Source: Chiloscyllium plagiosum (taxonomy: Eukaryota). From it: DNA of 64,000 nt. A program made the position numbers and the translations under genes. Position 1 is the first letter of the stretch; the number at the start of each line of letters is the position of its first letter. The stretch is from assembly GCF_004010195.1 (NCBI RefSeq), contig NC_057720.1, positions 72,530,893 to 72,594,892 of the forward strand, in the 5' to 3' direction. This document shows positions 3,860 through 60,150 of the stretch, one piece after another. The notes beneath the pieces were generated by a model. The model did no database searches. It was not told the origin of the DNA and was given only the letters and a program-made list of their open reading frames with translations.

Positions 3860-4290
3860 AGACATAGAAGCAGAAGTTAAGCCATTCGGCCCATCGAGTC
3901 TGCTCCACCATTCAGTCATAGCTGATAGGTGTCGCAACCCTATTTTCCACTTTTCTGTATCCTCTGATCCCCTTGGCAATAAAGAATTTAGCTGTGGAGA
4001 AAGTGAGGACTGCAGATGCTGGAGATCAGAGTCGAGAGTGTGGTGCTGGAAAAGCAGGAAGGGCTTATGCCCAAAAAGTCAATTCTCCTGCCCCTCAGAT
4101 GCTGCCTGATTGGCTATGCTTTTCCAGCAAGAACATTTCTGTCTTTGTTTTAAATATACTCAATGTCCTGGCCCCCACACCTTCTGTGGCAAGGAATTCC
4201 ACAGATGTACCACTCTCTGGGGCTAGAGACGTTTCTCCTTATCTCTGTTCTAAAGTGTCTTCCCTTTACTCTACGGATGTGCCTGGCCAT
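3860..4290 (-). mobile_element. CR1-like LINE 3' end interrupted by a PLE-derived insertion
   Basis: Antisense 3' UTR signature agaagcagaagttaagccattcggcccatcgagtctgctccaccattca. Confidence 0.7.
3996..4129. mobile_element. Short Penelope-derived (pLTR) insertion with inverted halves
   Basis: gagaaagtgaggactgcagatgctggagatcag...gctggaaaagc, then an inverted part gaagggcttatgcccaaaaagtc...gcttttccagc (hammerhead remnant). The flanks look like a decayed ~14-bp TSD. Confidence 0.75.
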
Positions 4291-4579
4291 TAAGTGGTAA
4301 TTAAAAGACAGCAGGTTTTTGGGGTAATAATTGGATAAAGGCAATCATAAAGGGAATGAAGATTGTGATTCGCCTGCTCACCCTTTTGTAATAATCCAGG
4401 GTGCATATAAACTTTGTAGTGCCTCCTCATTTAAACAGTCGTCTCGTTATGGCCAAGCATTAAGCATTCTGAGAAATATCTACGCCACTTTGTATTGGGC
4501 TCAAAGTTTTGCACCAACAATGTCACTTTACTAGTATCCATGCTACTCAAAGGCAGCCTGTGCTTCTTAAATGTGAGGT

Positions 4580-5160
4580 ATATTCTGGCTAGAGCAGCTA
4601 CTAGAACTGTTTCATAGAGGTTTCTAAAATTGTGAGCGGCATGAAAAGGGTGAATGGACAAGGTCTTTTCCTTAGGGTGGGGGAGTCCAAAACTAAAGAG
4701 TCTAGGTTTAAGGTGAGTCATGGAACCACAGAGATATACAGAACAGAAACAGACCCTTCAGTCCAACTCATCCATGCCGACCAGATATCAATATAAATCT
4801 GGTCCCATTTGCCAGCATTTTTCCCATATCCCTCTAAACCCTCCGATTCATATACCCATTCAGCTGCCTTTTAAATTAAAATGTTTAAAAATAACCTGAA
4901 GGGTAACCTTTTCATACAGAGGGTGGTATGTATACAGAATGAACTGCCAGAGGAAGTGGTGGAGGTGGTGACAGTTACAACATTTAAAAGGTACCTGGTT
5001 GGGTGTATAAATCAGAAGGAGAGAGAGGGATATGGACCAAATGGAGAGCTCCTTCAAGGAAGGATATGCTGGTAAATGAGACTAGGTCAGATTGGGATCT
5101 CTGGTCAGTGTAGATGAGTTGGACTGGAAGATCTGTTTCCATGCTGTATGACTCTGTGTG
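4580..5160. mobile_element. CR1-like 3' fragments: + (4580-4720), - (4721-4880), + (4885-5160)
   Basis: Translation LKGNLFIQRVVCIQNELPEEVVEV is the CR1 ORF2 C-terminus. A minus-strand 3' UTR copy is nested between the two plus-strand pieces. Confidence 0.8.
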
Positions 5161-5369
5161 TCTAAAAAGAGTCTGAACAGAAAGAGAGTAAGAGTGACAA
5201 AACAAACCTTAGAGTTTCTGTATTGGTTGCTTTCCTTCTGGAGTATTGAATTTGAATGTTTTGTTGGTGAAATTTCATGATGGGTAGACATTTCATGACC
5301 AGAATATGAACAAAGTCACTTTTTTGGTAAATGTACAACAGATATTAAAGCACAGGTAAAGGGTAGGTA

Positions 5370-5475
5370 TTTATAAACAACCTGATCAGACATGTTATGA
5401 CACATCTGTAGCAAGTGGGACTTGAACTCAGGCCTCCTTGCTCAAGACAGGGTCACTACCATCACAAGAGCTCCA
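5370..5475 (-). mobile_element. Short tRNA-derived SINE-like unit (same family as 36297-36410 and 36546-36662)
   Basis: The reverse complement has A-box-like tggtagtgaccc, B-box gagttcaagtcc and a tail tgtgtcataacatgtctgatcaggttg shared with the 36.3-36.7 kb units. Confidence 0.6.
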
Positions 5476-7092
5476 TCTAACATAGGGTATATTGAGATGA
5501 AATACAAGTTGCACTGAACAACGACTGTCAAATTGCTATTTGGTGCAAGCTGATAAAGTATGTGATGCACATTCTCTATTCACCTGAAAAGCAGCAGTCA
5601 TTGCTAGGGCTGGCAGAAGAATCTGTACAAATATAGATTGGAAAAACAAGTTCAAGGCATAGTAAAGTTCAAGCCACAGCAACACATCCTGCCTGTCACC
5701 AAAGAATGCTCTAAGTTTACTTAGTGAATGCATGCTGCCCTGTAACCTGGAGATTTATTTTGAAAACTTAAGCATATGTGAGCTGAGTGGATAAATGGAA
5801 GAAACTCAAAAGCACACATTGGCTGCAGTTACATGCCACCTTCTTTCTTGTGACTGGTGTTTATCAACTTTGTCCTTTGCTGGGATTTAAATGAATGGCT
5901 GATCTATTGTTGCCTGATCATCATTACAAATTACTAATCTGTACACTGGAGAATACTATTTAATAGGGTAGTCATCCCCAAATGAGGGACAATTGCAAAT
6001 CCATTTTTTTCTATTCTGTAAAGCATCTGCCCATACAATAAGATGAATTGTATATTTTCTGTTATGTGTTTAATATCCTGTTCTAAAACTTTATTTTCAT
6101 TTATGATTCTCTCCTTATGGAAAAATCCGGAATGTATAACCAATGGACAACTCAACACATTCTTTAGTGCATTTTATTAACTATCTGTCGCTGCTGGGGG
6201 AAGGAATTCCCTTTTCTGTTACCTTTGTCTCCTTTTCTATTTGATCCAGCAAAAAGGGACAGAATTTCTCAGAGAATCAGTGAAAGTACCATTTGAGGCA
6301 GAGAATCAGACTCAGTTCAGGCAGGCTGGCTGATCTTTATGGCTGGTTTAAATCACTGAAAAGATAGACAAATTAGGATTAACTTATTGCCCAGCATGAC
6401 AGAAAAATCATATTGCATCTATAGTTTACAGTGTGAGATATCAATCGTATCAGTTTGGTAAAGTGTGTACAAGTGCAGGATGGTCATTTGATGGGTGATG
6501 AGAAATTATATAGAGATCCATTTATTCATAAGGGCAGTTGGCTTGTAGTGTTAGGAAGTATACATTTGTAATGTTTCAATTTGAGAACAAATTTTAAGTC
6601 TGAGAAAACATTGACTTCTGATCTCCTCCTCATTCTGCGACTGGCTGTCTGAAGTTTAACATAGTAGCACTGAAAGTTGGAAACTAAGAATTCATTTAAG
6701 ACCCAAAATTATCATTTAAGTTTTCATGAAGAATGATTGAAAGCAAATGTAAGTTGTTGGGGTGTGATCACGCTTTGTTGACAGAGTCCTATGACTACTT
6801 CTGACCAGTAGAAAAACAAAATGCATATAGGGTATGTCCCTAATAAAGAGAAGCAAGTTATGGTGTTGGCATTGTTATTTCCTGACAAAAGTTAATTCAG
6901 AAATTGGGTTTTGTCAGCCGGAAGCCTGTTGGTTGAACACTGGGGAAGGTTTGACTCTTGTATACAGTTTCTTGGATGACATATATTAAAATAACGATCT
7001 ATTGAATGCCTATGAGGACATGGTCAGACTTTGAAGGATTTAATTTTGAGTTTCACATCTGGCTCGCATTTAAATTGCACTGAAGTGTTCAC

Positions 7093-9505: not shown

Positions 9506-9825
9506 GATTAGATTAGATTATATTCCCTACATTGTGGAAACAGGCCCTTCGGCCCAACAAGTCCACACCGACCCTCGGAAGAGCAACCCACCCAGACACA
9601 TTCCCCTACATTTATCCCCAACACTACGAGCAATTTAGCATGGCCAATTCACCTAACTTGCACATCTTTGGACTGTGGGAGGAAACTGGAGCACCCAAAA
9701 GAAACCCACACAGACACGGGGAGAATGTGCAAACTCCGCGCAGACTGTTGCCGAGGTGGGAATTCGAACCTGGGTCCCTGGCACTGTGAGGCAGCAGTGC
9801 TAACCACTGAGCCACCGTGCCGCCC
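9506..9825 (-). mobile_element. HE1-type V-SINE
   Basis: tRNA head gggcggcacggtggctcagtggttagcactg, V-domain ggagtttgcacattctccccgtg and (aatct)n tail. Confidence 0.92.
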
Positions 9826-12600: not shown

Positions 12601-14090
12601 GCTTTTTCAATCTGAGAGAAAATAGAAAAGAATAAATTGTAACTCTCTGACTGTGCTATCATGACTGTAAGGCTGGGATTGACCATGGGCCAATGCTCCT
12701 GCTTACCAGGCGCATGCTCTAGGGTGAGTCCATCTAGAAGTGATGACAACTAAATAGTCATTGGGTAGTTCGTTCCTGAGATCATGGCCTCTGACTTCCG
12801 AGGCAGGGTATCTCATTTCCAAAAGCTATTGGCCAATCAGAGTTATGGCAATTCTTCAGTCTCAGCAGTGCCACCAGGACTGCTGGCCATAACCAGGACT
12901 GCAGAAGGCCTCAGATTGGGAGTAATGCTGGAGTAAAGGTAAGTGGGGTGGCTTACTGGAGCTGTTTAAACAGGCCTTGTCTCAGGTGGGTGATTAACAG
13001 GGGCAAAGGTATGGATTGAGAGGCCAGGTGGGGGAGTTTGATGTGGGGTGCAGATTTTGCTGTTGGAGTGTCTTCCATGAGTCAGTGTGTCCCATCAGGA
13101 GTGAATATCCCCATTGTTGAGCTCATGGAAGGTGCACAAGTATGCATTGCAGGTATGTGGCATATCAGCTCTCACCCATTCCTTTAATCACCCGTCCTCT
13201 GTTTCTCCTCCTTCACCATGACCACCATCAGGCTCGCTGTTAAAATACAAGTCTAACCCAAGACAAAATGCAAGACTAATTTTCTTGGCATGTTGGCAAA
13301 GTATCAAACTTATTGATTGGTGCATAAAAGATAAGTTGCTTGTGATAATGATAAATGAGTATTGGATGCTGATTGTCAGGGAAGTTCCATGGGCATTAAT
13401 TTTAGGATTTTTTTTAATATATATTGATGAATCACAGGACAGACCATTGTTCCATAAGTGTAAAATGAATTGAGTGTCTTGGCCATTAAAGCAAACTAAT
13501 TGATCTAGATAAATTGTTTCCTTTTAAGACAACCAAAGCAATGAATTGCAATGGGGATATATTGGCAGTTGTTAAATTTGATAATAGAATTGAGGATATG
13601 GCTTATGTGCGAAATGGTAACATTCTCTAATTCATGGAGAAGCAAAGGGATCCAGGTTCTTCTGTAGAGAGGTCATCTATATTTTATACAACCTCTTATC
13701 AGAATTGAAAGAAGAAAGAAGTATCAAAGCTTTCACATCATTAGCAGGAGAGGTGGGGGAGGCAGGAATAAGAGTAAAGGAAGTTCTCTGATAAGATGGG
13801 TGGCAGGAGCGATTAACTTACAAAATATTTCTTGATACTAAAGCCAAAGAATGTGGCAATTGGTATGGTGGTTGTGTATAGCTGCCATGTAAATGGCGAT
13901 ATGACAGCTGCATGAATGCCATGCGAAGAGATATAGAAAGAAATAGAACTTAGCAAACTCCAACTTTAAAACCATGACATGCAAATCTGACTTAAAAAAA
14001 AGAAATCTGTTCATGGGATATGGTTGTCCTGGTTAGGCTGCATTTATTGCCCTGGTGAAGATGGTGGTGAGTTGCCTCCTTACGGTAGAG

Positions 14091-14856
14091 TGGTGCTGGA
14101 AAAGCACAGCAGGTCAGGCAGCATCCGAGAAGCAGGAAAATCAACGTTTTAGGCAAAAGCCCTTCATCAGGAATGGAGGCAGAGTGCCTGCAGGGTGGAG
14201 AGATAAATGAGACGGGGATGGGTGTGGGGAGAAAGTAGCATAGAGTACAATAGGTGAATGGGGGTGGGGATGGAGGTGGTAGGTCAGAGAGGAGAGTGGG
14301 TGAAGGTAGCAAAGAGTACAATGGGTGAATGGGGGTAGGGATGAAGGTGGTAGGTCAGAGAGGAGGGTGGAGTGGATAGTTTGAAAAGAAGATAGACAGG
14401 TTGGACAAGTCATGGGGACAGTACTGAGCTGGAAGTTTGGAACTGGGGTGAGGTGGGGGAAGGGGAAATGAGGAAACTGGTGAAGTCCACATTGATGCCC
14501 TGGGGTTGAAGTGTTCTGAGGCGGAAGATGAGGCATTCTTCCTCCAGACGGCTGGTGGTGAGGGAGCGGCGGTGAAGGAGGCCCAGGACCTCCATGTCCT
14601 TGGCTGAGTGGGAGGGGGAGTTGGAATGTTGGGCCACAGGGCGGTATGGTTGATTGGTGCGGGTGTCCCGGAGATGTTCTCTAAAGTGCTCTGCTAGGAG
14701 GCGTCCAGTCTCCCCAAGATAGAGGAGACCGCATCAGGAGCAACGGACACGGTAAATGGTATTGGTGGATGTGCAGGTAAAACTTTGATGGATGTGGAAA
14801 GCTCCTTTGGGGCCTTGGATGGAGATGAGGTCCTGCATCTGCAGTCCTTGTTTTTA
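14091..14856 (-). mobile_element. 5'-truncated Penelope-like element (GIY-YIG endonuclease + pLTR) with 16-bp TSD
   Basis: The minus strand encodes CGLLYLGETGRLLAEHFREHL...VAQHSNSPSHS..LEEECLIFRLRTLQPQGINVDF. Decayed hammerhead at 14141-14174. TSD cctccttacg(g/t)tagag at 14075-14090 and 14857-14872. Internal ~72-bp duplication at ~14225-14370. Confidence 0.9.
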
Positions 14857-15019
14857 CCTCCTTACGTTAGAGGGTAGCCCATACTATTATTTTGAAGGGA
14901 GTGTCTACAGTTCCATGATTCGAAGTGCAAAATAAAAGGACAGTCGGCCATAGCGAGAGTCGGTGTATATAAAAAAGGTTGAGACTGATGGATAAACTGG
15001 ACACAAGGTGGCAAAGAAT

Positions 15020-15185
15020 AGAGTCATAGAGATATACGGCATGGAAACAGACCCTTGGGTCCAATTTGTCCATGCTGACCAGATATCCCAACCCAATTTA
15101 GTCCAATTTGCCAACACTTGGCCCATATCCCTCTAAACTCTTCCTATTCATGTACCCATCCAGATGCCTTAGAGTCATAGAGTTG
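15020..15185 (-). mobile_element. CR1-like 3' UTR fragment
   Basis: agagtcatagagatatacggcatggaaacagaccctt..., the same 3' end as the copy at 15328. Confidence 0.8.
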
Positions 15186-17349: not shown

Positions 17350-17445
17350 TACTTTATTCTCTCTCCTCAGATGTTGCTGGGTCTACTGTGCTTCTCCAGC
17401 ACTTTTGTTTTCTTTCAGCTCCCAGCATTTGCGGAAATTGGTTCT
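17350..17445 (+). mobile_element. Old Penelope pLTR-derived fragment
   Basis: ctctctcctcagatgttgctgggtctactgtgcttctccagcacttttg...cccagcatttgc is similar to the pLTR consensus seen in other copies. Confidence 0.55.
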
Positions 17446-18491
17446 CACTATATCACTTACATAAAAATTGGTTGCATGGGTTTCAATCATATTGGGACTG
17501 TTATGCAGAAGTGGGGATACAGCCAAAAAACAATTGTCTTGATCATGACTGTAGAGAGGCTTCTCAAATAATGAAACCTCCCAGAATGCCTCCTATTACC
17601 AGAGCCATGACAATCTTCAACTCTCGAACTACAGCTTGCAAGGAACAGTGGCAAGGCAGGATTAAACAAAACTCCATATTCTGCTCTTGCATTGTAGTGA
17701 CATAAAAACATTCCAAGAAGTTTTACCTATCATTCGCAAGTGTCATTTGTTTTTAGTAAGTTTTTGTTTCACCAATTGTTGCAGCTGTGAATAAAACAGT
17801 GTTGCTGGTCTTTGAATTCAGTCACTGCGTATGACATTGCAATGTATTTTGTTTGTGCTGAAGAAGCGAAGGGGCTTTGATAGCACAGAGCTGTCTGAAT
17901 GGGGATTGGAAGCAGGGATATGTCTAAGTTTGTAGCAGGGCAGATATCTTGAGGAATGGTCTGTATTAGTGTCACTTCCTCTCCTTTCAACTTCTATTAT
18001 TGCACATATTTCTGTGCTATGCTGACAGTTTATGCAGATAGTTTTCTTCCAATGTAAATGCATAAATTTTTGTTGCATTCATGTGCACCTTGTTCACGTG
18101 GAAATAACTTGTTCTGAGGTAAGAAAAAAATAATTGCTAAGTTTATGCCTTCACCAAGATAGCACAATTCATTTAAAAGCACTCTTAAAAAAATACCATT
18201 TTGAGCTATATCCTTTATAGTTTATATTTACATTAATTTTAATCATTGTAAAGAAAGCCCACTTAAACAAAAAGCAAGAATTTCAAGACGTATCCTCTAA
18301 TACATCAGTCATGTTACGTCTGCAGACTGACAATGAAATAGCTTTGGAAACATGACACAAGAATCTATCCAATCACATTGCTGCACATTAATACTATGTC
18401 ATCTTTAATTACAAATACAGATTGTTGTACAATATTAACTTTAGCATTTGCAATGTGGCAATTGGCAACTTCTGAATCATGTCAATAGTTT

Positions 18492-20334: not shown

Positions 20335-21740
20335 TGCTTCATTCATCAGATATGGGTGTCGCTAGCTGGGTCAGAGTTTATTGCCTGTCCCTAGCTGTCC
20401 TTTTAGTGAGCTGTCTTCTTGTACCGTAGCAGGCCCTGTCCTGTAGATTGTCTCACAATTCCCTGAGGGAGGGAAGTGCAAAGTTTTGACCCAGCTACAC
20501 AAAAGGAATCGCCTTCTATTTCTTAGCCAGGATGGTGAGTGGCTTGGAAGAGAACTTGCGGATGGTGGTGTTCCAAAGCGTCGGTTGTCTTTGTCTTTCT
20601 CGGTGATAGAGGTTAATGGTTTGAAAGATGCTTCTGGAAGAGCCTTGGTGAATTGCTGTAGTGCATCCTATGATTTTTATACACTGCTGCCACTCTGTAT
20701 TGGTGATAGCAGAAGTGGATGTTTAAGATATTAGATGGGATGCTAATCAAGGGGGGACTGTTTTGTCTTGGATAGTGTCAAAATTTATGTTGGAACTGCA
20801 CTCATCGAGAGTCGAAGAGTGTGGTGCTGGAAAAGCACAGCCGGTGAGGCAGTATCCGAGGAGCAGGAGAGTCGATGTTTCGAGCAGAAGCCCTTCATCC
20901 TGCTTTTCCAGCACCACACCTTTTGACTCTGATCTCCAACATCTGCAGTCCTCACTTTCACCTAGCTGCACTCATCCAGTCAAGTGGGGAGAATTCAGTC
21001 ACACCCATGACCTGCATCTTGCAGATGATGAACAGTCAGGAGGTGAGTTACTTACTGCAGGCTTTCTAGCCTTTGAACACAGTATTTATAAAATTGGGCT
21101 TGTAAGAGGTCAATCATCTCATTCCAATGCCATCACTGGAGGAGTTGCTGATAGTTATGTCCTTACGCCTCACTATCTTCCTTTGTGCAGTGTATCATAC
21201 AAACCAGCAGAGTATTTTCCCTCTGATTCCCAATGACTTTAGTTTTCCAGGGATTCATTTTGTCGTTGTCAACTGCTGTAAATGAGTCAAGGGCAGTTAT
21301 TCTCACCCCTCTTCTTGAGTTCAGCTTTTTTTTGACTATGTTTGGACCAAGACAGAAATGATGTGAGTACCAACCTGTCCTGGTGGAACCCAGATTGAAC
21401 ATCAGTGTGCAGTTGTACTGCTTGATAACATGATTGATTACACCTTCATCATTTGGATACTCGAGAGATCACTAATGACCAGGTTCAAGTTGTCCTTTTC
21501 TTTGGGCAAGACATACCTGGGCTATTTTCTATGTTGTGAAGAAGATGACAGTGTTGCAGTTGCGCTGGGCTAACTTAACTACAAGCATGGTTAGTTCTGG
21601 AGCATTTGGCTTCAGTACTATTGCTGGAGTATTGTCTGATTCCAAGTCTTTGCAGAATCCTGTGCCTTCAGCTGTTTCTTGATATCATGTAGAGTGAATC
21701 AAATTGGCATAAGACTGGCATATGTGAGATCCCCTGGCTG
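20335..21740 (-). mobile_element. Degraded CR1/L2-group LINE 3' region (second family)
   Basis: Antisense 3' end ttcattcatcagatatgggtgtcgctagctggg...ttattgcctgtccctag is shared with 42310, 47220 and 13995. Decayed RT-like sequence lies upstream. Confidence 0.7.
20807..20965. mobile_element. Short Penelope-derived inverted-repeat insertion with 11-bp TSD
   Basis: TSD ctgcactcatc at 20796-20806 and 20966-20976. Inverted arms gtgtggtgctggaaaagca / tgcttttccagcaccacac, with a truncated minus-strand hammerhead. Confidence 0.88.
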
Positions 21741-22416: not shown

Positions 22417-23297
22417 AGCGAGTTTTGAGAGGATTTGTAGCTCAGGTTGAGGTTCTAGATATAAGTTTGCTCACTGAGCTGGAAGGTTCATTTTCAGACG
22501 TTTCGGCACCATACTAGGTAACATCATCAGTGAGCCTCCGGTGAAGCACTGGTGTTAGTGACCCGCTGACTCGCTGTCATTTCCTGAAGTGATGTCATTT
22601 CCTGTTCTTTTTCTCAGAGGGTGTAAATAGGGTCCATGTCAATGTGATTGTTAATAGAATTCTGGTTGGAATGCCATGCCACCAGGAATTCTCGAATGTC
22701 TCTGTTTGACTTGTCCTAGGATGGATATGTTGTCCCAGTCAAAGTAGTGTCCTTCCCCATCTGGATGTAAGGATACTAGTGAGAGTGGGTCATGTCTTTT
22801 TGTGGCTAGTTGATGTTCATGTATTATGGTGGCCAGTTTTCCGCCTGTTTGTCCAATATAGTGTTTGTTACAGTGCTTGCAAGGTATTTTGTAAATAACA
22901 TTAGTTTTGCTTGTTGTTTCAAGTTCATTAGCTGCTGTTTTAGTGCGTTGGTGGGTTTGTGGGCTACCATAATGCCAAGAAATCTGAGTAGTCTGGCAGT
23001 TATATACATGAGGAGGGACACCACTTCGACTGGGACAACACATCCATCTTAGGACAAGCCAAACAGAGACACTCATGAGAATTCCTAGAGGCATGGCATT
23101 CCAACCAGAACTCTATCAACATAAAAATCAACTTGGGCTCCATTTACCATCCTCTAAGAAAAAGAACAGGAAATGACATCACTGTAGGAAATGACATCAC
23201 CAACACAAGGAAACCTAAACACAGACATAGAAAGTGGGTCACTAACACCAGTGCTGTGAGAAAACAAACCTTCCAGCTCAGCGAGCAAACTTACATC
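22417..23297 (-). mobile_element. Penelope-like element (second family) with GIY-YIG fragment and inverted 3' duplicate
   Basis: Minus ORF NVIYKIPCKHCNKHYIGQTGGKLATIIHEH. 23010-23297 is an inverted copy of ~22460-22770. Decayed TSD catgtca(a/c)t(t/g)aatt at 22403-22416 and 23298-23311. Confidence 0.9.
22494..22533 (-). ncRNA. Minimal type I hammerhead ribozyme (PLE pLTR)
   Basis: The minus strand reads uca-CUGAUGA-U-guuacc-uaguau-ggugcc-GAAAC-GUC-uga, with one stem II mismatch. Confidence 0.75.
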
Positions 23298-29480: not shown

Positions 29481-31664
29481 TGAAATGAAAGATTATCTAT
29501 ACTGTCTAAAATACCACCCAACAGTGGTATTAGCAAATATGGATATACAAATTTCTGTCCCATTCTCCAAGTCATTAATAAATAATGTGAATATTTGAGG
29601 CCATAATACAGATCCTGTGGGACACCGCTGGTCACATTCTGCCAATTCTAGTGCCAACCCATTATTTTTACTTCCTGTTGCCTGTCATTCAGCTACTTTC
29701 CTAGCTATGTCAGTAATGTGCCCTCAATTTACCTTCTGGAAGTCCATACAGTCAACATCCATTGACATTCCCTTGTCTGCTATCCGAGCCATCTCTTCAA
29801 ACTAATTCAATGAAGTTTGACAGGCATGACCTACCTGTCATGAATCCATGCTGGCTCTTCCTGGTAAACTTAAAATTTTCAAGATGTTCAGTTGCCCCAT
29901 TCTTCATTGTCGACTCCAACACATTCTCCATTACAGACGTTAGGCTAACTGGTCTGTAATTCCTTGGTTTTACTCTTCTTAAAAAGCAGAGTGACATGCA
30001 ATCTTGCAGTCCAGAGGGGTAAATCCTGTACGTAAAGAACTCTGGAAGATTACGAATAGGTCATTTACCAACGTGCTCCCCAACTTCCTTTAAACACCTC
30101 AGATAGAAACCGTCAGGTTCTAGGGATTTGTTATTCTGTAATTCCATTAATTTCCTCATTACTGACATTTTACTTGTGTTAATTTTATTCAGTCTCTGTT
30201 CCTGATCGACTGGCAAGCTGTCCACCTTTTACACTATGAATACTGGGGCAAAGTAATTATTCAACATGTCTGCCATTTCCCCGTATTCATGGAAAATTCC
30301 CCACTTTCAGTCTTTAGTGAGCCAGCATTGCTGCTGACCACCTGCCTTCCCTTTATGTAACCAGAAAGTGATGTCTTATTGATTTTGATGCCCCTGGCAG
30401 TTTTCCTTCTTTAATCCCTTTTAGTAGGTCCTCTAAGCTGCTTTGTCTGCCTCAGATGGTCTTTGTATTTTTTTCATGCAGTAGGATTTGTGCTTTTTTT
30501 GCATTTTGTAAGCCATTTCTTTTAGTATTATGCTGTCCCTTATCTCTTTGGTTGTCTGTGGCTGTTTTTTTTTCTGTGAAGTGGAGCTTTCCCCTCTCAG
30601 GGGTATAAACTGTATTGTGTTAAATTTTTCTTGAAATGTCCTCTGCTGTTCTTCAGTTGTCTTACCCATTAGCAGATTGTCCCAGTTTACCGTGGATAGT
30701 CTCTGTCAAATTGCATTCATGTTGCCTGACCTAAATCTAAAATTCTGGGGGCTGATACTTTTTCACTTTCAAACACTACATTGAAATTGATTTTGATCAT
30801 GTTATGATCACTTTTATGGCCAATGTTCACACTGACTTAGGTTACTAATTAAATCTGGCTCATTACTCATTATGAAATTCCCTTGTGCATTCAGGATATA
30901 TTGCTGCAGGAAACTATACTGGACACTCTCCAGAAATTCACCAACTTTCTGTCAGGTAGGCTTGTTTGCCCCTCCCAACCCATTTTAGAGTTAAAATCCT
31001 ACATTAATACTACTTTGGCTTTGCTACATACTTGCCTAATTTCTGCTCTTATACAGTCTAGCACATCAGAGCTGCTTTAAGGGGGTCTGTACACATCTAT
31101 TAGAGTTTTAGACCTTTTACTGTTGCTGAGTTCCACCCTCATGGTGTCAACTGAATGCTCTTCCCTCATAACATTCTCCCTCACCGTTGCAATATTTGTT
31201 TTCTAATGATTGAGGTTACTCCACCTCCTCTGCTATTTTTCCTGTACATCCTGTGAACCTTAAAACCTGGCATTTTTAGATCCCAAACCTGATCATCCTC
31301 CAGACATATCTCGTAATGGCTGCTACGTCATCATCTCAAACTTAAATTTGTGCCTGCAGCCCATTTAATTTATTCCTTACACTCTGTGCATTTATATATA
31401 GATCTCTTACTTGGATCATACATTGTAATCTGTCGCTCAGCACTGATACTTGATTTACCTGTTTATTATTTCTCTCTTCCCGTTTAATTAATGCACGTTT
31501 TATAGTTTTGTGATTTACCTGCTGTACCTGAAGCAAGATTCCAGACTGTTGCTTTACTCTGTCCTGTTACTTTCTTTTGAAACTGTACGACTTCCCATGA
31601 GCCCCTCACCTCCAAATAGTAGTCTAAAGTCCTTATTCTACCCTTCACCTTTAGGGTTTTACAC

Positions 31665-31720
31665 CTGAAAAGTTAACTTCTCCACCTCCTGATGCTGCCT
31701 GGCTTGCTGCGCTCTTCTTA
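31665..31720 (+). mobile_element. Tiny Penelope pLTR-derived fragment
   Basis: ctgaaaagttaacttctccacctcctgatgctgcctggcttgctgcgctcttc. Confidence 0.5.
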
Positions 31721-38203: not shown

Positions 38204-38465
38204 ATTCAGGTTGTAAGTTTGCTCACTGAACTGGTAGATTTGTTCTCAGACGTTTCGTCACCACGCTAGATAACCTCATCAGTGAGCCTCCGGTGAAGCG
38301 CTAGTGTTCTGTCCCGCTTTCTATTTATGTGTCTTGGTTTGTTAAGGTGGGTGAACTTCCGGTTCTTTTTCTCAGAGGTGGCTAAATGGGGTCCAAATCA
38401 ATGTGGTTATTGATGGAGCTCTGGTCTGAATGCCAGGCCTCCTCTGCATATATCTGTTTAGGCTA
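38204..38465 (-). mobile_element. Penelope pLTR fragment (same family as 22417-23297)
   Basis: gtaagtttgctcactgaactgg...catcagtgagcctccggtgaagc...gaatgccaggcctc matches 22460-22710. Confidence 0.88.
38245..38286 (-). ncRNA. Minimal type I hammerhead ribozyme, apparently intact
   Basis: The minus strand reads cuca-CUGAUGA-G-guuauc-uagcgu-ggugac-GAAAC-GUC-ugag. Stem I cuca/ugag, stem II fully paired (2 GU), palindromic ACGU helix III. Confidence 0.85.
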
Positions 38466-39669
38466 AATTGGGATCTCTTACCAATCTTTCCATTTCAAAT
38501 GTTGCTAGTTGACATTTTTCCTGATTATTCTAAGCTGCTTTCTGTTTTATGCTAATATATAGAATAATTGTTGAGTGTGTGTAGTGTGCTGTAGTTTCAG
38601 GTTTTTCTCTGTTGTATTTAGAGTGGTAATGGGAGTCATGGGTATAATTGATTCATCACATTAATGACAAGAGGTATTGTTAGTGGGAACTTGCAGATAA
38701 TTTTCGGTTTAATCTGTTGAAACATGGGTAATATTTTTTATTTTGCTCAACTATTGTCTGTTAAATTTTGAATTGATAAGTTACTAAAGTGATTACATGC
38801 TCATGGGAAAATATTTACTCAATTTGGGAGGAACCAACTCCTACAAAAGTTGAATTTTCAGAAGACATGTTTTATGCATTGAATGAAAGCATTCAATTAT
38901 AATTTTCTTATTATTTAATAGTACAAAATTTAAAATGCTCTTGTAGAAGTTGCCCTAGCAGCCAAAACTATAGAAATAAAATGATTAAGTAAATTAAGGA
39001 CATCAAGCACTGGAACAGTAAAAGAAAGTAGTCAGACTTAGTATTCATTATTGTATGGTATGTATGGTAAGTGAGATCATGTTTTACATCTTGGATAAAG
39101 AAATGAACAGTAAGTTCTTAATGATGAGCAATGACTAAAACTCCATTAATGATACCAAGTCTCCAATACCTCTATTTTGTGTTAATTTTGATTTGACAGT
39201 GTAGTCATGAAACTTCTACTACAATTCCAATGTTTACTTTTCCTCATGACAGGATCCTCAAAAATGCCTGTTCTCCCATTGTTCTGCTCTCATTCCTTCG
39301 CCTCCCTCTCAGAACTACAAAAAGGATTCTTTAGTGCTTACCTTCCTCCAGCCTGATCCACAGATTATTTCTAAACACCTCATTGCTGGCACGTCTTCCT
39401 TCCTATTCCTTTCACCATTCTCCTGGATCAGTTTTGTTCTGTTTTTCTTGAGTTCCTATGCTCCTGTATTTCTAATAGAGGACCATAGATTTCTGGAGTG
39501 GTCTACAGCATCATGGGGTAGAGTGGGTAAAAGGCATCAAAATGTTCAAACTTTGATAACCGTATTGAGTTCTTGGGGAGATTCATTGGGCTGAATGGCC
39601 TGCTTCTTTTCTATGACACCCTGGTCCACTCTTCAGTCACTCTAACACTGCAGCATGAACTATGACAAT

Positions 39670-40420
39670 CTTCCATCTAAGTGCAGGAGATATGATACCT
39701 GGTAAATCATCTCATCTTTTTCTGTCTTCCATGGCCTGAAACGTACCTCTAAGTGGAACAGTGATTTACATGTTTGCTTCTTCCAAAGTAGTGTATTTTA
39801 TTCATTCCCGCCCCACCCCGTCTCATCGACACTGGGAAGGCTAAACACATTGGGTAATCCCTTGTGGAACACCTCCACTGTATCTGTAAATGCAATCATT
39901 CCCTCACCTATCATTTTAATTCTCCACCTCTTTGACCTTTTTGTTCTCAGTCTCCTACTCTAGTTTAATAAATGTTGTTATAAGTTTGAGGAAGAGCATG
40001 TTATCTTTGCTTAGGCTCTTTTGAGCCTACTGCTTTTAACAATTTTAGGTCCTTACCTCTGCCTTCCCCTTTTTGTCTGATGATAGCTGTAGGTGGTGAT
40101 TTTTGCTTTCCCAATGGACCTCTCCTTTAGACACACCTTTTTGTTTCTTTATTGCCCACATACAATATTCCTTTCATCATTTAATGTCCACCTTTCTCCA
40201 CATCTTAAATCTTTTCTCCAATATTTTCTTACCCCAGCCCCTTTCTCTATCTCTCTACTTTGTTCGAGTGTCTCTAACATTTTCCAGTTCTGGTGAAAGA
40301 TCATGGACCTGAAATTTGAGTTCTGTTTCTCATTCATTGATACTGCCTTACCCACTGAATACATGCAACGTTTTCTGTTTCCATTTCAGATTTCCAGTAT
40401 CGAATGTATTTTGCTTTTAA
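39670..40420 (+). mobile_element. Very old Penelope-like 3' fragment (GIY-YIG remnant + pLTR with degenerate hammerhead at ~40290-40316)
   Basis: gatttacatgt...gtagtgtattttattc...gtggaacacctcc...catttaattctcc...gaggaagagcatgttatcttt parallels the 14.4-14.8 kb ORF. ctggtgaaagatcatggacctgaaat is a decayed core. Confidence 0.6.
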
Positions 40421-40630
40421 GTGTTACCAGTGACCTTTCCATTTTCTGTAGTTACTAATGTCCCCTTTGATGTATCTGAATAACAAAAGTAACTTTAATC
40501 CAAATTTGTCTGGTGAATAAATCACATCAGCTGTCCATTTTATTAATGGATTTCATATTCACTTGTTTTAAATTGAAAATGAAGTCATGGCTAGTGTGTG
40601 AAACTTTACATGTTCTGATTGCATCGCTTT

Positions 40631-40946: not shown

Positions 40947-41093
40947 TAACCCACAGGGTTAATTAAGATTAACCCTGTTATTTTTCCCGAATGTGTATTT
41001 CACAACTTTTGTAAACCTTGAACTTTTACTGCCTTTTAAAGTCCTGTTTGGAAGTCTCAGTAAAAATAGATTAGAGTTCTTCATCTTGGAGTT

Positions 41094-41160
41094 GAGAATG
41101 TGGTGCTGGAAAGGCACAGCAGGTCAGGCAGCATCCGAGGAGCAGGAGAAAAGCCCTTCC
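41094..41160 (-). mobile_element. 67-bp Penelope pLTR-derived insertion with perfect 13-bp TSD
   Basis: TSD tcatcttggagtt at 41081-41093 and 41161-41173. Confidence 0.9.
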
Positions 41161-42309
41161 TCATCTTGGAGTTTTATTTTCTCAAGAATTGATACAAATT
41201 CATTTAAAAAGGAATTAAATTAAAATTAAAATTTAAAAGAAAAACTGAATCTTCTTCATGGTCACACAAAATCAACAAACAACAAATCCTGCAAGGTTAT
41301 GCCTGTCTTATTTGTTTGATCTATCGATATTGTTGTAAATTGGTTGTACAATACCTTGAATGTACAGAAGGCTGCTGATAATGCGAACTGCTGTGAAGGC
41401 TACAGCCACAATAAATGTTAAATGATAAGAAGTTCATAATCTTTAAAAATGCCCTTGTTTGATATATGCAACAATATCAATTGCATCACTTTTTTCAAGT
41501 GCAAATCATGTGATGATGGTTTGCTCTGTGGTGAACAACTTTGTTAAGCATTGCTTGGTGGAGCTCAGGAACCTCAGTCTCACTGTGTCTGCTACGTTTA
41601 CTGTGGAGGTTTACAGTGGGCTGCGATCCAGGATTCACTGGCCTCTGTTTTCTTTGGTTCCTCATCGTGGTCACTGAACTTTATATTTCTGTTCCTCTCC
41701 TCCAAGGCCCTTCCAAACAGACTCCAAAGCTGACCACAGCCAACAACTGCTTCCCTCTTGTCTGGATCAATGTCTATCATCTTCAAACCTCATCTCGTAG
41801 CAGAGGTATAAGTATCCTAGTGGCCAGTTCAGGTGCACAAGCCTTTTGGGGACACAGCCTTCATCCATGTAATGAAGAAGAAGGAGCCAGTGCAGAGATT
41901 GCAGCTCAGCATTAGCAAATGTGATTAGCATACTCAAATGTTCTCTGCTAAGAAATGGTGACGTTACATCTGAGAGAAAGGGAATTGGAAACAGTTCAGC
42001 CTTTTCTACCACCCAGCATGTGTGGTCCAGGGTTCACCACAATGAATGATCGTGGAGAAAGGGGCTGGGAAAACTTGCAGCTTAGTGTTTTCTGTTGAGT
42101 TGTTGTTCCATACTCTCCTAAACATGTCTTCATATACGCAAGATATTAAAAATGTCACAACTCAGTGCTATGAGTCAAGAAATTAATATTGGCTCAAATA
42201 GCTGGTGATTCACAGATAAGAAGTCCAATACCCAGCAGCTGGAAGCAAAGTCTATTAGCAGTGTAGCTCCAAAGCCAAACCTCCAGCATTGAGATACTCA
42301 TGACGACGA

Positions 42310-43422: not shown

Positions 43423-43520
43423 GACTCTCCTGGAACTCGGATGCTGCCTGACCTGCTGTGCTTTTCCAGCACCATCCTTTTTGATTCTGACTCTCCAGCA
43501 TCTGCAGTCCTCACTTTCTC
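43423..43520 (+). mobile_element. Penelope pLTR-derived insertion beginning at the predicted hammerhead cleavage site; 9-bp TSD
   Basis: TSD ctaaattgt at 43414-43422 and 43521-43529. Body gactctcc...ggatgctgcctgacctgctgtgcttttccagca...cactttctc. Confidence 0.85.
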
Positions 43521-43549
43521 CTAAATTGTAAGGACGCAAGGGAGAAGAG

Positions 43550-48270: not shown

Positions 48271-48279
48271 CACCAAGTC

Positions 48280-49864: not shown

Positions 49865-50061
49865 CACCCACTTTGCCCCCAGCCCCATCCACCTCCCTCT
49901 TTTTTTCGCAGCCCCTTTCCCCTCCCCCAGTCCTGATGAAAGGTTCCGACCTGAAATGTCAACTCGCCTTCTCCTCAGATGCTGCTTGCCTTGTTGTGCT
50001 TTTTCTAGCTCCACTCTTCATCCACTCTGACTCTGTAGCATCTGCAATCCTCACTACCTCC
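49865..50061 (+). mobile_element. Penelope pLTR fragment with hammerhead core at 49929-49964
   Basis: agtc-CTGATGA-A-aggt-tccg-acct-GAAATGTC-aact. The deviations are consistent with CpG decay. Confidence 0.82.
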
Positions 50062-50647
50062 AGTGCCAAGATAAAGGTGCAGGCCTCCTGCTTAATCGAG
50101 GCAGTCCATGTTTTAAGGGGGATGTCACTGGCATTGAGGCAGCTGTCCACAATTTAGATGCTGTCACAGGAGTGTCGCAAAGTTTTGTCTCTGGGGTTTT
50201 CCTGCTAGGTCCCTTTAAAATATAGTGTTGATGCTTCTGAGGTGCTTTTGGGGTACTTTCTGAGTTTCCTACCTGCCTCATGCACACCCACTACTCCCAG
50301 TAAGGCTGCAGAGGCTCCACAGATGCTGTCTGTCTGTTTGGGCCAAACACTGGGGGCTTCTCCCCACGCTATGCTTCACTGGGCAGTGAGGTAATGTGCC
50401 CTACTACCCTTCCCCACAGTGAGGAGGAGTCTGTTGCAATACCCCTGTGCCCATCTGACACGTTTAGGCTCAAGAGCTCCACTTAGTCACCATGTTCCCA
50501 GGCAAAAACTCAGCCCAAGATGTTTACTGATCTTATTTATGAGTTGGACCTCAATCTATTTATCAATTTTCTAGATATCTATGGTCAGAATTTCTCACAG
50601 GTGGTGATGACCCTGACCACTGGCTGGACAATGAGCTAAGTTGTTTG

Positions 50648-50776
50648 TCCTGATGAAGGGCTTTTGCCCGAAACGTCAATTTTACTTCTCCTCGGATGCT
50701 GCCTGAACTGCTGTGCTTTTCCAGCACCACTAATCCAGAATCTGGTTTCCAGCATCTGCAGTCGTCGTTTTTACCA
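50648..50776 (+). mobile_element. Penelope pLTR-derived short element starting with an intact hammerhead core (50650-50677)
   Basis: CTGATGA-A-gggc-tttt-gccc-GAAAC-GTC followed by the pLTR body to ...catctgcagtcgtcgtttttacc. Confidence 0.88.
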
Positions 50777-50814
50777 AGTTTGTATCTGCATGTCATGAGA
50801 CCATTTTCTTTTCT

Positions 50815-51330
50815 TCTATGGGTATTGCTGATAAGATCAGCATTTATTACCCATCCCTGATAAGCCTTAAATTTGGTGGCCGGCCAGGCCATTTCAGAGG
50901 GCAGTTAAGAGAGAACTATGTTTTGCACTGACAAGTAAAGATGGCAATTTTGTTTACCTAAAGAGCATTAAATAGTTTGTTTTCAATTCTAGATTTTATC
51001 AATTAACTGAATTAAAATTCCTCAGTTGGCGTGGTGGGATTTGAACCCATGTTGCCATATAATTAACCAGGAGAAAGTGAGGACTGCAGATGCTGGAGAT
51101 CAGAACTTAAAAATGTGTTGCTGGAAAAGCGCAGCAGGTCAGGCAGCATCAAAGGAACAGGAGAATCGACGTTTCGGGCATAAGCCCTTCCTGAAGAAGA
51201 GCTTATGCCCGAAACGTCGATTCTCCTGTTCCTTTGATGCTGCCTGACCTGCTGCGCTTTTCCAGCAGATAATTAACCAGGACCTCTGAGTTACTAGTCC
51301 ACTGACATGACCGCTGTGTACTGCCATCAC
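50815..51330 (-). mobile_element. tRNA-derived SINE (same family as 7093-7444) interrupted by a PLE-derived hairpin
   Basis: gtggtgggatttgaaccc B-box and ttactagtccactgacatgacc head on either side of the insertion. Confidence 0.7.
51073..51268. mobile_element. Young Penelope-derived palindromic element with 14-bp TSD and hammerhead core
   Basis: TSD ataattaaccagga at 51059-51072 and 51269-51282. 72-bp arms at 51119-51190 and 51196-51267 (1 mismatch, 5-nt loop). CTGAAGA...GAAACGTC at 51191-51218. Confidence 0.95.
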
Positions 51331-53209: not shown

Positions 53210-53314
53210 CTTAGGAGAAAGTGAGGACTGCAGGTGCTGGAGATCAGAGTCAAGAGTGTGGTTCTGAAAAAGTACAGCCACTCAGGCTGCATCCAAGGAG
53301 CAGGAGAATCGATC
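53210..53314 (-). mobile_element. Penelope pLTR-derived insertion with 11-bp TSD
   Basis: TSD aataatgctta at 53199-53209 and 53315-53325. The sense 5' end (tcgattctcc) lies within a few nt of the predicted cleavage site. Confidence 0.85.
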
Positions 53315-58049: not shown

Positions 58050-58510
58050 AAGAAAGAGCTTGCATTTATGTACAACCTTGCTTCATGTCCCGATGTCATA
58101 GAGTACCGCATAGCCTGTGAAGTATTTGGATGTGTAATCATATCTGTAACATAAAGAATGACAAAAACCAATTCACATACAGGAAAGTCCCACAGATTGC
58201 AACAAGGTAAATTACTAGACTATCTCTTTTTATTAGTGTTGTCTGAGGGATAATAGTAGGTCAGTACTCCAGAGGAATTCTCCTATTCTTCTTCAAATGA
58301 TTCCATGGGATTTTTTTCATCTTCGGTGATGGCAGTTCGAAACTCTGTTTAATGCTTCCTCCAAAATGTATGGCCCTTGACAATGCAGCACTTCAACAAT
58401 ACTGCTTTGAAGTGTCAACCTAGGTTAATTGCCCTGACACCTGGATTGGGGCATGAACTACCAGTTTCCTGACTTGAGGGTAAGTGCTCTCACTTGCCCA
58501 ACAACTGAGA
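58050..58510 (-). mobile_element. DeuSINE-like (SacSINE1/AmnSINE1-related) ancient SINE
   Basis: ccatgggattttttcatc...ctgtttaatgcttcctccaaaa...gacaatgcagcacttcaacaatactgctttgaagtgtcaacctag resembles the antisense Deu domain. L2-like tail cttgcatttat. Confidence 0.65.
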
Positions 58511-59253
58511 TAATGATACTGAAAATGAAATCAGAACCTTCATGGATTCAACAGGGGACATATCCGACCAGAGCTAATGGAGTATGGTATTACATAGCCA
58601 TAGCTGTACAATATAAGTCAAAAGATGTTATCGTCAAATGTTCTGGAGATATTGCACCTAATTATGGTCAGGAGAAAACAAGGAAGTAATTTAAGCATCT
58701 GCAATAGTAAGTGAAGAGCCTTTAGACTGAGCTTGCAGTACTAAGAGTTTAGTTCTGAACAGCAGAGTGGTTTGAGCTCTCCTGGCGCTATTTAAGGATT
58801 TTGAGAGGTTGAGGAAAGCAAACTTTGTATACTGCTTTCAATGAAAATGCTAGTACAGAAGAAAAGGACACCAGTTTGAATTATGACAAAGTACGTTTAA
58901 GACATGCCCCATTTCCTGTTGACTCATTTTGATATGTTTCCACCTCTAAAATTTGGGGCTTTTTTTTCACAACTCTGTTTTAAACTTTGCAATCAGGTTG
59001 TCGCTCTTGCTCTGAATAGACTGGCATCAAGATAATGAATGATATTTGCTGACATTATGAGGCTGATAAGTGTTCCTTCTGGAAGATGAGCAGTATGGGT
59101 ATGATAAGACACTGATGTCCAGTGCACATAGAGGGATTTCAAACCTCTGCTGTCAGGGTCAAGCTGAACAGTGCATCATTTAAGTAGCCTCATTACTGAG
59201 ATAGATGTCCACTTGCAGGATTGCCTGTTGACATTTAATCCACAAATATCTAA

Positions 59254-59879
59254 TGTTATGGACCAAGCCAGATCCCTTCAAAACATTTCAAGAAGGTAAC
59301 CCAGACCCTGACTTTTCTAGTTGTTTTAAGCAGATGTAAATGGGATAGTCCAGGAGTGATGCAGCTGGTCAGAAGCCCTCAGTTTTAAAGAAAACAGAAT
59401 TTATTCACAGAATGAAACACAAACAATAGAGAACAGAACGCAGAATAACTTAACTTACCCGAAAACCCAACAGACTATCCCAACTTAATGATGATGATCC
59501 AAATGCCCGCAACATTCCCCATAAACACTCCCTTGGCAAAAAAGGTAAAATCAGACACAGGCTCTTACAGGAGAGAGAGAGAGAGATGGTAGAGAGGTTA
59601 AGGATGGAATCTCTTTCCACTGTGCCTGTTTCTTTGGATTCCCCAGCTTAAACTGACCAGCAGCTCTAAACAACCAGACTGTGAAAACCAAACCAAACCA
59701 GAGAAAAGCTGAGCTGGGAGAACTGGCCACTCTCCTTTTATTGTGCAAGTGTTTTTTTTTAAACTTAAAAGTTTCTCCAAGGAGGTAAACCCAGACATTT
59801 TGGAACCCATGACATTATGACCCCTCTGAATAAAAAAACTAAGGACAACATAACCTTATAAAGGAGCAGCATTATCACA
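59254..59879 (-). mobile_element. Solo LTR (626 bp) with 4-bp TSD
   Basis: Ends TGTTAT...ATCACA, with TSD ctaa at 59250-59253 and 59880-59883. AATAAA on the minus strand near 59400, so orientation is tentative. Confidence 0.78.
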
Positions 59880-59974
59880 CTAATGTGAACCCAAAGTCCA
59901 GAGCAAACACCTTGGAATAAGATTAGTAAAGCTAGGAATTTCCATCAAGTAAAAGCCAAAAACTACAGATACTT

Positions 59975-60150
59975 GAAATCTGAAAAAAAAGAGAAAATGC
60001 TGGAGAAGCTCAGGTCTAGCAACATCTGTGAGAGAGGAAAAGATAATCGTTTTGGGTCTGATACGGCTTCTTTAGAATCAAATCAGTCTCGCAATGTTAC
60101 TCTCACCAATGCTGCCAGACCCCCTGAGTTCTCCACCATTTTCTCTTTAG
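59975..60150. mobile_element. Old Penelope-derived inverted-repeat element
   Basis: aaagagaaaatgctggagaagctcaggtctagcaacat and atgctgccagaccccctgagttctccaccattttctcttt form inverted arms. Confidence 0.65.

What the first reader, a model, noticed from the sequence alone, without database searches (positions are those of the whole stretch)
3996..60150. Dispersed system of tiny hammerhead-bearing Penelope-derived elements (retrozyme-like)
Seen: at least 12 insertions share pLTR-like sequence (3996, 14091, 17350, 20807, 22417, 38204, 39670, 41094, 43423, 49865, 50648, 51073, 53210, 59975). Many are 65-200 bp, have no ORF and carry their own 9-16 bp TSDs. Five retain a recognisable CUGANGA-stem II-GAAAYGUC core, with at least three different stem II sequences (gggc/gccc, aggt/acct, guuayc/ggugmc), which looks like covariation. 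Established: PLE pLTRs carry minimal type I hammerheads with a palindromic helix III thought to work as dimers, and ORF-less hammerhead retrozymes exist in other eukaryotes. Inference: this genome hosts abundant non-autonomous ribozyme mini-elements of several ages, mobilised by PLE RT/GIY-YIG. I cannot tell whether they have been described in sharks.
Basis: partly seen in the sequence, partly recalled or inferred. Interest (0 to 1): 0.75.

Follow-up and report, generated by a model that had tools for sequence, protein, structure and literature searches.

The report
Shark Penelope retrotransposon end stubs
These are real, very common short insertions of the ribozyme-bearing end of a known kind of jumping gene (Penelope-like elements) in a carpet-shark genome, likely dead by-products of its copying rather than a separate self-cutting element, though their sharply fixed end points likely record where copying starts and where the element's RNA begins.

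Summary
The repeats are real, but they are not shown to be retrozymes. All 14 listed sites are Penelope-like (PLE) sequence. Five exact hammerhead cores occur (0.1 expected) and 8 of 14 sites have significant 9-17-bp TSDs. Two of the five cores lie in Poseidon copies with GIY-YIG remnants. Of 10 short ORF-less copies, 3 keep the core, and each has a broken stem I or II. No hammerhead tandem occurs in the window. Short copies share subfamily sequence and architecture with a 779-bp GIY-YIG-bearing Neptune copy. This layout (5' truncation, inverted arm, one-sided tail, solo minimal hammerheads) is published for PLEs. The ends are not random, though: 3' ends cluster about +50 to +68 and +100 from the cut site, and 6 of 13 5' ends fall at -30 to -22. 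Public reads show a step, loose ends and fold-back/tandem joints at -30 to -32. Best reading: cDNA primed in the pLTR tail that runs off the RNA's 5' end (inferred). This scan already reported the same pattern in this genome and at least five others.

The parts
3995..4129 (.). Fold-back Neptune-type stub (subfamily A2): antisense arm +99..+37, sense arm -22..+49 (0 = hammerhead C17); core broken; TSD not significant
14087..14865 (-). 5'-truncated Neptune copy (A1): GIY-YIG remnant with an in-frame stop, 3' UTR with 71-bp tandem, damaged hammerhead (G12A), ends at +56; inverted tail arm +71..+103 at about 14826-14865; 16-bp TSD 14075-14090 / 14857-14872
17354..17448 (+). Old-family tail fragment, no hammerhead, no TSD found
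20807..20965 (.). Fold-back A2 stub: antisense arm +68..-25, sense arm +37..+101; core broken; 11-bp TSD
22417..23297 (-). Poseidon copy with GIY-YIG remnant, hammerhead core 22530-22497 (U.C mismatch in stem II), long tail; inverted arm about 22990-23297 with deleted hammerhead and a tail about 40 nt shorter; 14-bp TSD with 2 mismatches
31655..31717 (+).
   Evidence: (E 1.4e-8)
38204..38442 (-). 5'-truncated Poseidon copy reaching into the GIY-YIG C-terminus; best-preserved hammerhead in the window (core 38282-38249, 4-bp stem I, 6-bp stem II); no TSD found
39665..40426 (+). Old Neptune-like piece; pLTR-like end 40230-40426 with broken core (CUGGUGA); upstream ORF remnant inconclusive
41092..41161 (-). 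70-bp A2 stub, about -24..+61 with an internal deletion through the hammerhead; 17-bp TSD (1 mismatch) overlapping the element's 5' end
43423..43522 (+). 100-bp A2 stub from +1 (first base after the predicted cut) to +100; no hammerhead; 9-bp TSD
49865..50062 (+). Older Neptune subfamily (A3) stub, -95..+104; core 49933-49960, stem II AGGU/ACCU, first stem I pair broken; no TSD found
50648..50777 (+). A1 stub, -29..+103; core 50650-50677, stem II GGGC/GCCC intact, first stem I pair broken; TSD not significant
51069..51267 (.). Fold-back A2 stub: antisense arm +100..-22, sense arm -30..+49; core 51191-51218 with an A.C mismatch in stem II, predicted buried in a long hairpin; 14-bp TSD
53210..53314 (-). 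105-bp A2 stub, -1..+102; no hammerhead core; 11-bp TSD
59944..60147 (.). Old-family fold-back stub: long antisense arm ending at the 5' edge of a decayed hammerhead, shorter sense arm; 11-bp TSD 59933-59943 / 60148-60158

Best explanation
The repeats are end-pieces of Neptune- and Poseidon-type Penelope-like retrotransposons with their own target duplications, and are likely one-off by-products of the autonomous elements' copying, in which reverse transcription likely starts at one of two sites in the terminal repeat and most often likely runs off the RNA's 5' end just upstream of the hammerhead. Steps: (1) shown: identity as PLE ends, shared subfamily sequence with ORF-bearing copies, 9-17-bp TSDs. 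(2) shown: 3' ends cluster near +50..+68 and +99..+104 from the hammerhead cut site, and every fold-back pairs one long with one short arm. (3) inferred from the Anolis Poseidon biochemistry: the RT/GIY-YIG protein nicks both strands 9-17 nt apart and each 3'-OH can prime cDNA at one of the two tail sites; two cDNAs joined head to head give the fold-backs. (4) shown: 5' ends pile up at the 5' edge of the hammerhead (-22..-32). (5) inferred: -31 is the transcript start, so priming in the upstream pLTR gives an 80-135-nt run-off cDNA that is trimmed a few bases and joined through microhomology. The hammerhead is a passenger that decays after insertion.
For: Clade: the 14470-14733 remnant is 84% and 77% identical to Chiloscyllium punctatum RT+GIY-YIG proteins carrying the CX4CxxC linker (Neptune marker per PMC8557442); the 22741-22956 remnant is 74-84% identical to Stegostoma proteins without it. 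Continuum: 50648 (130 bp, no ORF) is 76/84 identical to the ORF-bearing 14091 copy and 25/28 to its inverted tail arm. 3' ends: 8 of 13 Neptune arms end at +99..+104 and 5 at +49..+68 (p~0.008 against uniform); 6 of 6 fold-backs in the window have the tail on one arm only. 5' ends: 6 of 13 arms end in a 10-nt window at -30..-22; p 0.0002 (lengths shuffled among starts), 0.001-0.005 (exponential models). Genome-wide (861-bp reference): 126,720 and 114,857 contigs laid in two organisms; loose ends at -31/-32 in 1,286 (X1) and 1,299 (X9) contigs with near-random flanks (agreement 0.30-0.34); 9 of the 15 joint rows shown have one side at -30..-32. RNA-read depth falls 774 to 117 across this edge and stays 20-139 for the next ~640 nt; tail/ORF ratio 26. 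An A at -31 in a YYANWYY context (initiator consensus, recalled) is present in 3 of 3 Neptune-type copies that extend upstream. Decay: no short copy has core, stem I and stem II all intact.
Against: The transcript start is not measured. In D. virilis Penelope the start lies about 120 nt upstream of the hammerhead and an intron ends at helix I (PMC2377424; PMC4209133). An untemplated cap-G is not established here: the first loose letter at -32 reads as G on the RNA strand in X1 and X9 but not in X21, and could be subfamily sequence. Part of the step may be subfamily divergence upstream of the hammerhead. DNA contig word depth shows a 5.3-fold step but only 1.6-fold hammerhead/ORF, and the tool says it is no copy number. 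The RNA profile rests on one sample, 2% read; its sister run X22 laid 0 reads. No pile-up of RNA ends was listed (table 6). 423 joint rows and 2,372 loose-end rows were not shown. The window sample is 13 arms, and the 10-nt window was chosen after seeing the data. The initiator motif is short and the context pyrimidine-rich. Both Poseidon copies extend past their hammerhead, so the rule is shown for Neptune only.
Confidence: 0.55

Rival explanations
1. Same origin (by-products of autonomous PLEs), but the 5' boundary is a block, not an RNA end: RT stalls or dissociates at the folded or protein-bound hammerhead, at a splice junction, or the inverted arms arise by self-priming.
For: Window 5' ends spread over -30..-22, just past stem II, rather than sitting on one base. 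The Anolis hammerhead is protein-assisted. A CAG after a pyrimidine tract lies at this edge in the two older copies, as with the D. virilis intron. Self-priming is proposed for head-to-head junctions in Adineta (PMC3846280).
Against: Loose ends and joints concentrate on 3 bases upstream of the folded core. Subfamily A1 has AT, not AG, at this edge. Loose flanks share no common upstream exon (agreement 0.30-0.34). In 51073 each arm holds sequence missing from the other, which simple snap-back copying cannot give.
Confidence: 0.22
2. One reading: short units are themselves transcribed and re-mobilised in trans, as a SINE- or retrozyme-like non-autonomous family.
For: Fixed ends; head-to-tail joints from -30..-32 back to the tail in 27 (X1) and 32 (X9) contigs; sense-strand RNA reads exceed antisense only downstream of -41 (1.3-1.5 vs 0.2-0.8); pLTRs suffice for trans mobilisation in Adineta; PLE-derived non-LTR retrozymes are reported in one chondrichthyan.
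Against: No hammerhead tandem among the 4 tandem arrays in the window; 0 of the 6 arms that reach -30..-22 continue into a same-strand tail, as circle-derived copies would; 7 of 10 short copies lack the core and the other 3 have a broken stem; no two copies share a junction or length; the tandem joints are 27 of 18,418 partly laid contigs in X1; short copies match ORF-bearing subfamilies.
Confidence: 0.15
3. Plain random 5' truncation; the apparent boundary is an artefact of small numbers and of subfamilies that differ upstream of the hammerhead.
For: 5' truncation is the norm for PLEs. About half of the laid RNA reads are under 90% alike, and the loose consensus at -32 hints at sibling UTRs.
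Against: Permutation and exponential tests reject it in the window; fold-back joints land at -30..-32; read depth is flat for ~640 nt upstream of the step.
Confidence: 0.06

Closest known systems
Insertions of endonuclease-bearing PLEs, Neptune and Penelope/Poseidon clades (Arkhipova et al. 2013, PMC3846280, passages; Craig et al. 2021, PMC8557442, passages)
   Same: GIY-YIG ORF followed by pLTR; heavy 5' truncation; adjacent inverted truncated copy; optional 30-40-bp tail on one end; 8-10-bp TSDs; solo pLTRs
   Different: Here most copies are only the last 70-200 bp, TSDs run to 17 bp, and 5' ends cluster at the hammerhead's 5' edge, which I did not find in the passages read
Minimal type I hammerheads of metazoan PLEs (Cervera and De la Pena 2014, PMC4209133, parts 1-2 of 4)
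   Same: Same core, bulged base before stem II, palindromic helix III, several covarying families per genome, mostly single motifs 'probably related to truncated PLEs', pairs on opposite strands
   Different: Sharks are not named in the parts read; Neptune stems here are shorter (stem II 4 bp, stem I 2-4 bp)
Poseidon of Anolis carolinensis, internal RT initiation (Frangieh et al. 2024, PMC11167929, parts 1-2 of 4)
   Same: Two RT start sites downstream of the hammerhead that define the tail; both strands cut and extended; uncleaved RNA is the main template
   Different: Shown for Poseidon in vitro; no fixed 5' stop reported in the parts read; several junctions here overlap the TSD by 2-6 nt whereas priming there needed no homology
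Non-LTR retrozymes (Cervera and De la Pena 2020, PMC7229834, passages; Li et al. 2026, bioRxiv 10.64898/2026.07.22.740005, parts 1-3 of 5)
   Same: ORF-less, type I hammerhead, derived from PLE pLTRs, large TSDs, present in a chondrichthyan
   Different: Those are tandem units with two or more complete hammerheads and circular RNAs; the window copies are solo or head-to-head and mostly lack an intact ribozyme

Membership tests
EN+ PLE (Neptune) | C-terminal GIY-YIG with RT upstream and CX2-5CxxC linker | tested here: met
   14470-14733 is 84% identical to P0001, which has RT, CHRRNCKTC and GIY-YIG; tblastn 69% over 141 aa. The window copy itself starts after the linker.
EN+ PLE (Poseidon) | GIY-YIG without the Zn-finger linker | tested here: met
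   22741-22956 is 74-84% identical to P0003/P0004, which lack the linker; clade by this marker only, no tree built
EN+ PLE insertion | Hammerhead in the terminal repeat 3' of the ORF | tested here: met
   14091, 22417, 38204
EN+ PLE insertion | Inverted 5'-truncated arm and one-sided tail | tested here: met
   6 of 6 fold-backs
EN+ PLE insertion | Target-site duplication | tested here: met
   8 of 14 sites, 9-17 bp
Minimal type I hammerhead | CUGANGA, stem II, GAAA, palindromic 15.2-16.2, UH | tested here: met
   5 cores vs 0.10 expected; 49933 has AUGU instead of ACGU
Minimal type I hammerhead | Intact stems I and II in the same copy | tested here: inconclusive
   Met for 38282 (ORF-bearing); 22530 has a stem II mismatch; not met for the 3 short copies with a core
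Minimal type I hammerhead | Self-cleavage as dimer or with protein | not testable with these tools
   No assay; monomer folds give stem I probability <=0.02 in all 7 cores, as expected for this class
Non-LTR retrozyme | Tandem head-to-tail units with two or more complete hammerheads | tested here: not met
   None in the window; rare tandem joints elsewhere in the genome, 27 and 32 contigs, hammerhead state unknown
Non-LTR retrozyme | No coding capacity | tested here: met
   10 of 14 sites are ORF-less; 3 carry GIY-YIG remnants, 1 inconclusive
Non-LTR retrozyme | Monomeric linear and circular RNAs | tested here: inconclusive
   One poly(A) single-cell run laid; no end pile-ups listed; library unsuited to small circles
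Non-LTR retrozyme | Own lineage, amplified from short masters | tested here: inconclusive
   Short and ORF-bearing copies share subfamily sequence; no genome for a tree

The most novel reading that the evidence does not exclude
Shark Neptune PLEs start their RNA 4 nt upstream of the hammerhead core, so internal priming in the upstream pLTR floods the genome with run-off 'leader' cDNAs. End-to-end template jumps between leaders make head-to-tail hammerhead dimers (the -31-to-tail joints), which is how non-LTR retrozymes are born from PLEs. A minority of copies that begin at +1 (43423, perhaps 53210) are a DNA record of hammerhead cleavage in the germ line.
Probability: 0.3. Interest if true: 0.62.

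Novelty: new member of a known kind. Interest (0 to 1): 0.33.

Why it matters
As elements they are ordinary: PLE end-stubs with passenger hammerheads are published. The value is as a natural experiment. PLE copying is poorly understood and has been reconstituted only for one Poseidon element in the papers I read. A shark genome with a copy every few kilobases records RT start sites, nick stagger and stop points at high depth. If the -31 edge is the capped RNA end, it would locate the Neptune promoter, explain the inverted arm and one-sided tail as twin priming on one leader, and give a route from PLEs to tandem retrozymes. For annotators: these should be labelled truncated PLE copies, not new ribozyme genes.

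Tried and rejected
No whole genome is held, so no genome-wide family building. Rfam: no hammerhead hit; the miRNA hits at 51145-51242 and 9767-9868 are fold-back artefacts below gathering score. Loose hammerhead descriptors are at chance level. Pfam gave nothing for the two short GIY-YIG remnants; homolog search placed them instead. A metagenome scan with a 20-nt core pattern gave 1 match, which lacks the rest of the core and the tail and sits in unrelated sequence: chance. The ORF remnant at 39770-40010 does not beat a reversed control. Sequencing runs: no RNA holder listed; run X22 laid 0 reads. A finer read profile across the cut site and tail was not obtained, so the share of copies starting at +1 and the exact tail start sites remain open. 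Literature: 'Penelope + hammerhead ribozyme + shark' gave 1 paper, in which shark refers to the ribozyme's shape; 'Penelope + strong-stop + hammerhead' gave 0; 'Penelope-like + twin priming + inverted + truncated' gave 1 unrelated review, listing only; two shark-genome searches gave listings not followed. Lunse et al. (RNA Biol) is not held and is known only through PMC6765202. Rejected: stem II variety as proof of selection on the mini-copies (it is fixed between subfamilies and decays within them); simple snap-back for 51073 (each arm has sequence the other lacks).

Full report
Scope. The window has no whole genome behind it. Evidence comes from the window, one read/contig lay on an 861-bp copy, two protein searches and papers. 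Positions written +n or -n count from the hammerhead's C17 (0), the base before the predicted cut. Protein relatives come from Chiloscyllium, Stegostoma and Hemiscyllium, so the host is likely a carpet shark.

Observation. All 14 listed sites are PLE-end sequence. The strict core occurs 5 times against 0.10 expected; looser descriptors are at chance and Rfam sees no hammerhead. TSDs beat a random-pair null at 8 of 14 sites, 9-17 bp long; 6 sites have none that I can support. A profile built from the arms found two more weak copies, 31655 and 19858, and nothing in a reversed control.

What the copies are. Two clades are mixed. The 779-bp copy at 14087-14865 carries a GIY-YIG remnant 84% identical to a Chiloscyllium RT+EN protein with the CX4CxxC linker, the Neptune marker given in PMC8557442 (passages). 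Copies at 22417-23297 and 38204-38442 carry GIY-YIG remnants 64-82% identical to Stegostoma proteins without the linker, so Poseidon. The old piece at 39670 ends in a pLTR-like stretch; its ORF remnant does not beat a control. The other 10 sites are 70-204 bp and ORF-less. They are not a separate lineage on the evidence here: 50648 matches the ORF-bearing 14091 copy at 76/84 and its inverted tail at 25/28, and 14091 has the same layout as the short fold-backs, a sense arm plus an inverted arm inside one TSD.

State of the ribozymes. Two of the five cores are in the Poseidon copies. The three in short copies are damaged: 49933 and 50650 have lost the first stem I pair (C.A, the pattern of CpG decay), and 51191 has an A.C mismatch in stem II and is predicted to be buried in a -154 kcal/mol hairpin. 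Seven short copies have no intact core. Stem II does covary between homologous Neptune subfamilies (49933 vs 50650, pairs 1 and 4), but within families the changes are one-sided and weaken pairs. So selection acted on the active source elements, not visibly on these copies. Cervera and De la Pena (PMC4209133, parts 1-2 read) already describe covarying families of such motifs, mostly single, sometimes paired on opposite strands, and attribute them to truncated PLEs.

The ends are not random. Among 13 Neptune arms from 9 insertions (the older 17350, 39670, 59975, 31655 and 19858 copies and the Poseidon copies were left out of this count), 8 start at +99..+104 and 5 at +49..+68. All 6 fold-backs in the window, the Poseidon and old-family ones included, join a long arm to a short arm. 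This is the one-sided tail of PMC3846280 and PMC8557442 (passages) and fits the two internal RT start sites shown for Anolis Poseidon, whose protein cuts and extends both strands (PMC11167929, parts 1-2). At the other end, 6 of 13 arms stop at -30..-22 (p 0.0002 to 0.005 under three nulls; window chosen after the fact), 2 stop at -1 and +1, 3 inside the tail, and only 2 go further upstream.

Genome-wide check. On the 14091 copy at 80% likeness, 126,720 contigs of organism A (X1) and 114,857 of organism B (X9) were laid; 18,418 and 17,854 fit only partly. Loose ends at -31/-32 number 1,286 and 1,299 contigs with near-random flanks. Of 15 joint rows shown (423 not shown), 9 have one side at -30..-32: 4 fold-backs (17 and 21 contigs), 3 head-to-tail returns to the tail (27 and 32 contigs) and 2 skips. 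In RNA reads (X21, 3,576 laid, 2% of the run) depth is 2,708 in the tail, 774 over the hammerhead's 5' half, 117 just upstream and 20-139 thereafter. Against a strong reading: DNA contig depth gives a hammerhead/ORF ratio of only 1.6 and is not a copy number; sibling subfamilies with other UTRs add to the step; X22 laid nothing; no RNA end pile-up was listed.

Mechanism. Shown: PLE identity, TSDs, two 3' end clusters, a 5' edge at about -31, decay of the ribozyme. Inferred: staggered nicks prime one or two cDNAs at the tail sites; most stop because the RNA begins at -31; trimmed ends join by microhomology. The A at -31 sits in a YYANWYY context (initiator consensus, recalled) in 3 of 3 upstream-extending Neptune-type copies. 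The D. virilis start lies about 120 nt upstream with an intron ending at helix I (PMC2377424 passages), so this is not a general PLE rule and a stall or splice explanation stays open. A cap-derived G is inconclusive in my data (2 of 3 runs). I put 0.55 on by-product plus run-off, 0.22 on by-product plus stall or splice, 0.15 on a true non-autonomous family, 0.06 on random truncation.

Comparison with retrozymes. Non-LTR retrozymes are tandem units with at least two complete hammerheads that yield circular RNA (PMC7229834 passages; bioRxiv 10.64898/2026.07.22.740005 parts 1-3 of 5). That preprint derives them from PLE pLTRs and finds them in one chondrichthyan; its supplements were not seen. 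The window fails the tandem test and no arm crosses a tail-to-leader seam on the same strand. The rare tandem joints show that such dimers do exist elsewhere in the genome; they are the best lead for real retrozymes.

Novelty. The elements are new members of a known kind. The fixed 5' edge was not found in print by my searches, which cover open-access text only. It is not new to this scan: 20 findings in at least 6 genomes match the same words, and several on this genome already propose capped-leader run-off copies. I had noted the run-off idea before reading them; they are unchecked notes, not independent support. Interest 0.33.

Noticed in passing
window 236-2597: Endogenous retrovirus remnant: integrase domains (Pfam rve E 1e-14, Integrase_H2C2) at 297-1133, interrupted by a stop, followed by a 320-aa env-like ORF with no Pfam hit (env by position and look only); 79-bp tandem duplication at 236-394.
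   Followed up: partly
window 43423-43522 and 53210-53314: Two TSD-bounded copies begin at +1 and -1 relative to the predicted hammerhead cut, as expected if a cleaved RNA was copied to its end; a fold-back joint at +1/-31 also appears (3 and 5 contigs, 6 RNA reads) but a reference mismatch at that place blurs it.
   Followed up: partly
window 51069-51267: The two arms are identical over 67 nt, including changes not seen in other copies, while two changes lie in the unpaired middle: same template RNA, or arm-to-arm repair after insertion.
   Followed up: partly
window 9617-10018: Head-to-head pair of a SINE-like repeat (193-nt arms, 80% complementary, 16 nt apart); the family (HE1-like, name recalled) has at least 7 copies in the window.
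   Followed up: no
window 36434-36546: Decayed 5S rRNA copy above Rfam gathering score (43 vs 38 bits): pseudogene or 5S-derived SINE head.
   Followed up: no
window 15022-16300, 18575-18961, 19437-19866, 28735-29476, 54686-55102: CR1/L2-type LINE 3' fragments by their translated ORF ends (family recalled, not searched).
   Followed up: no
on window 14040-14900: RNA strand ratio flips at the hammerhead's 5' edge: element-sense/antisense 1.3-1.5 downstream, 0.2-0.8 upstream, if the library is stranded in the usual way; one sample only.
   Followed up: partly
P0007, P0013: Shark gene models for MAP3K7 and CUEDC2 isoforms include Poseidon GIY-YIG sequence: exonised or mis-annotated PLE pieces.
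   Followed up: no
window 26216-26933 and 61528-62027: Two assembly gaps (1,218 N), each next to LINE-like sequence.
   Followed up: no
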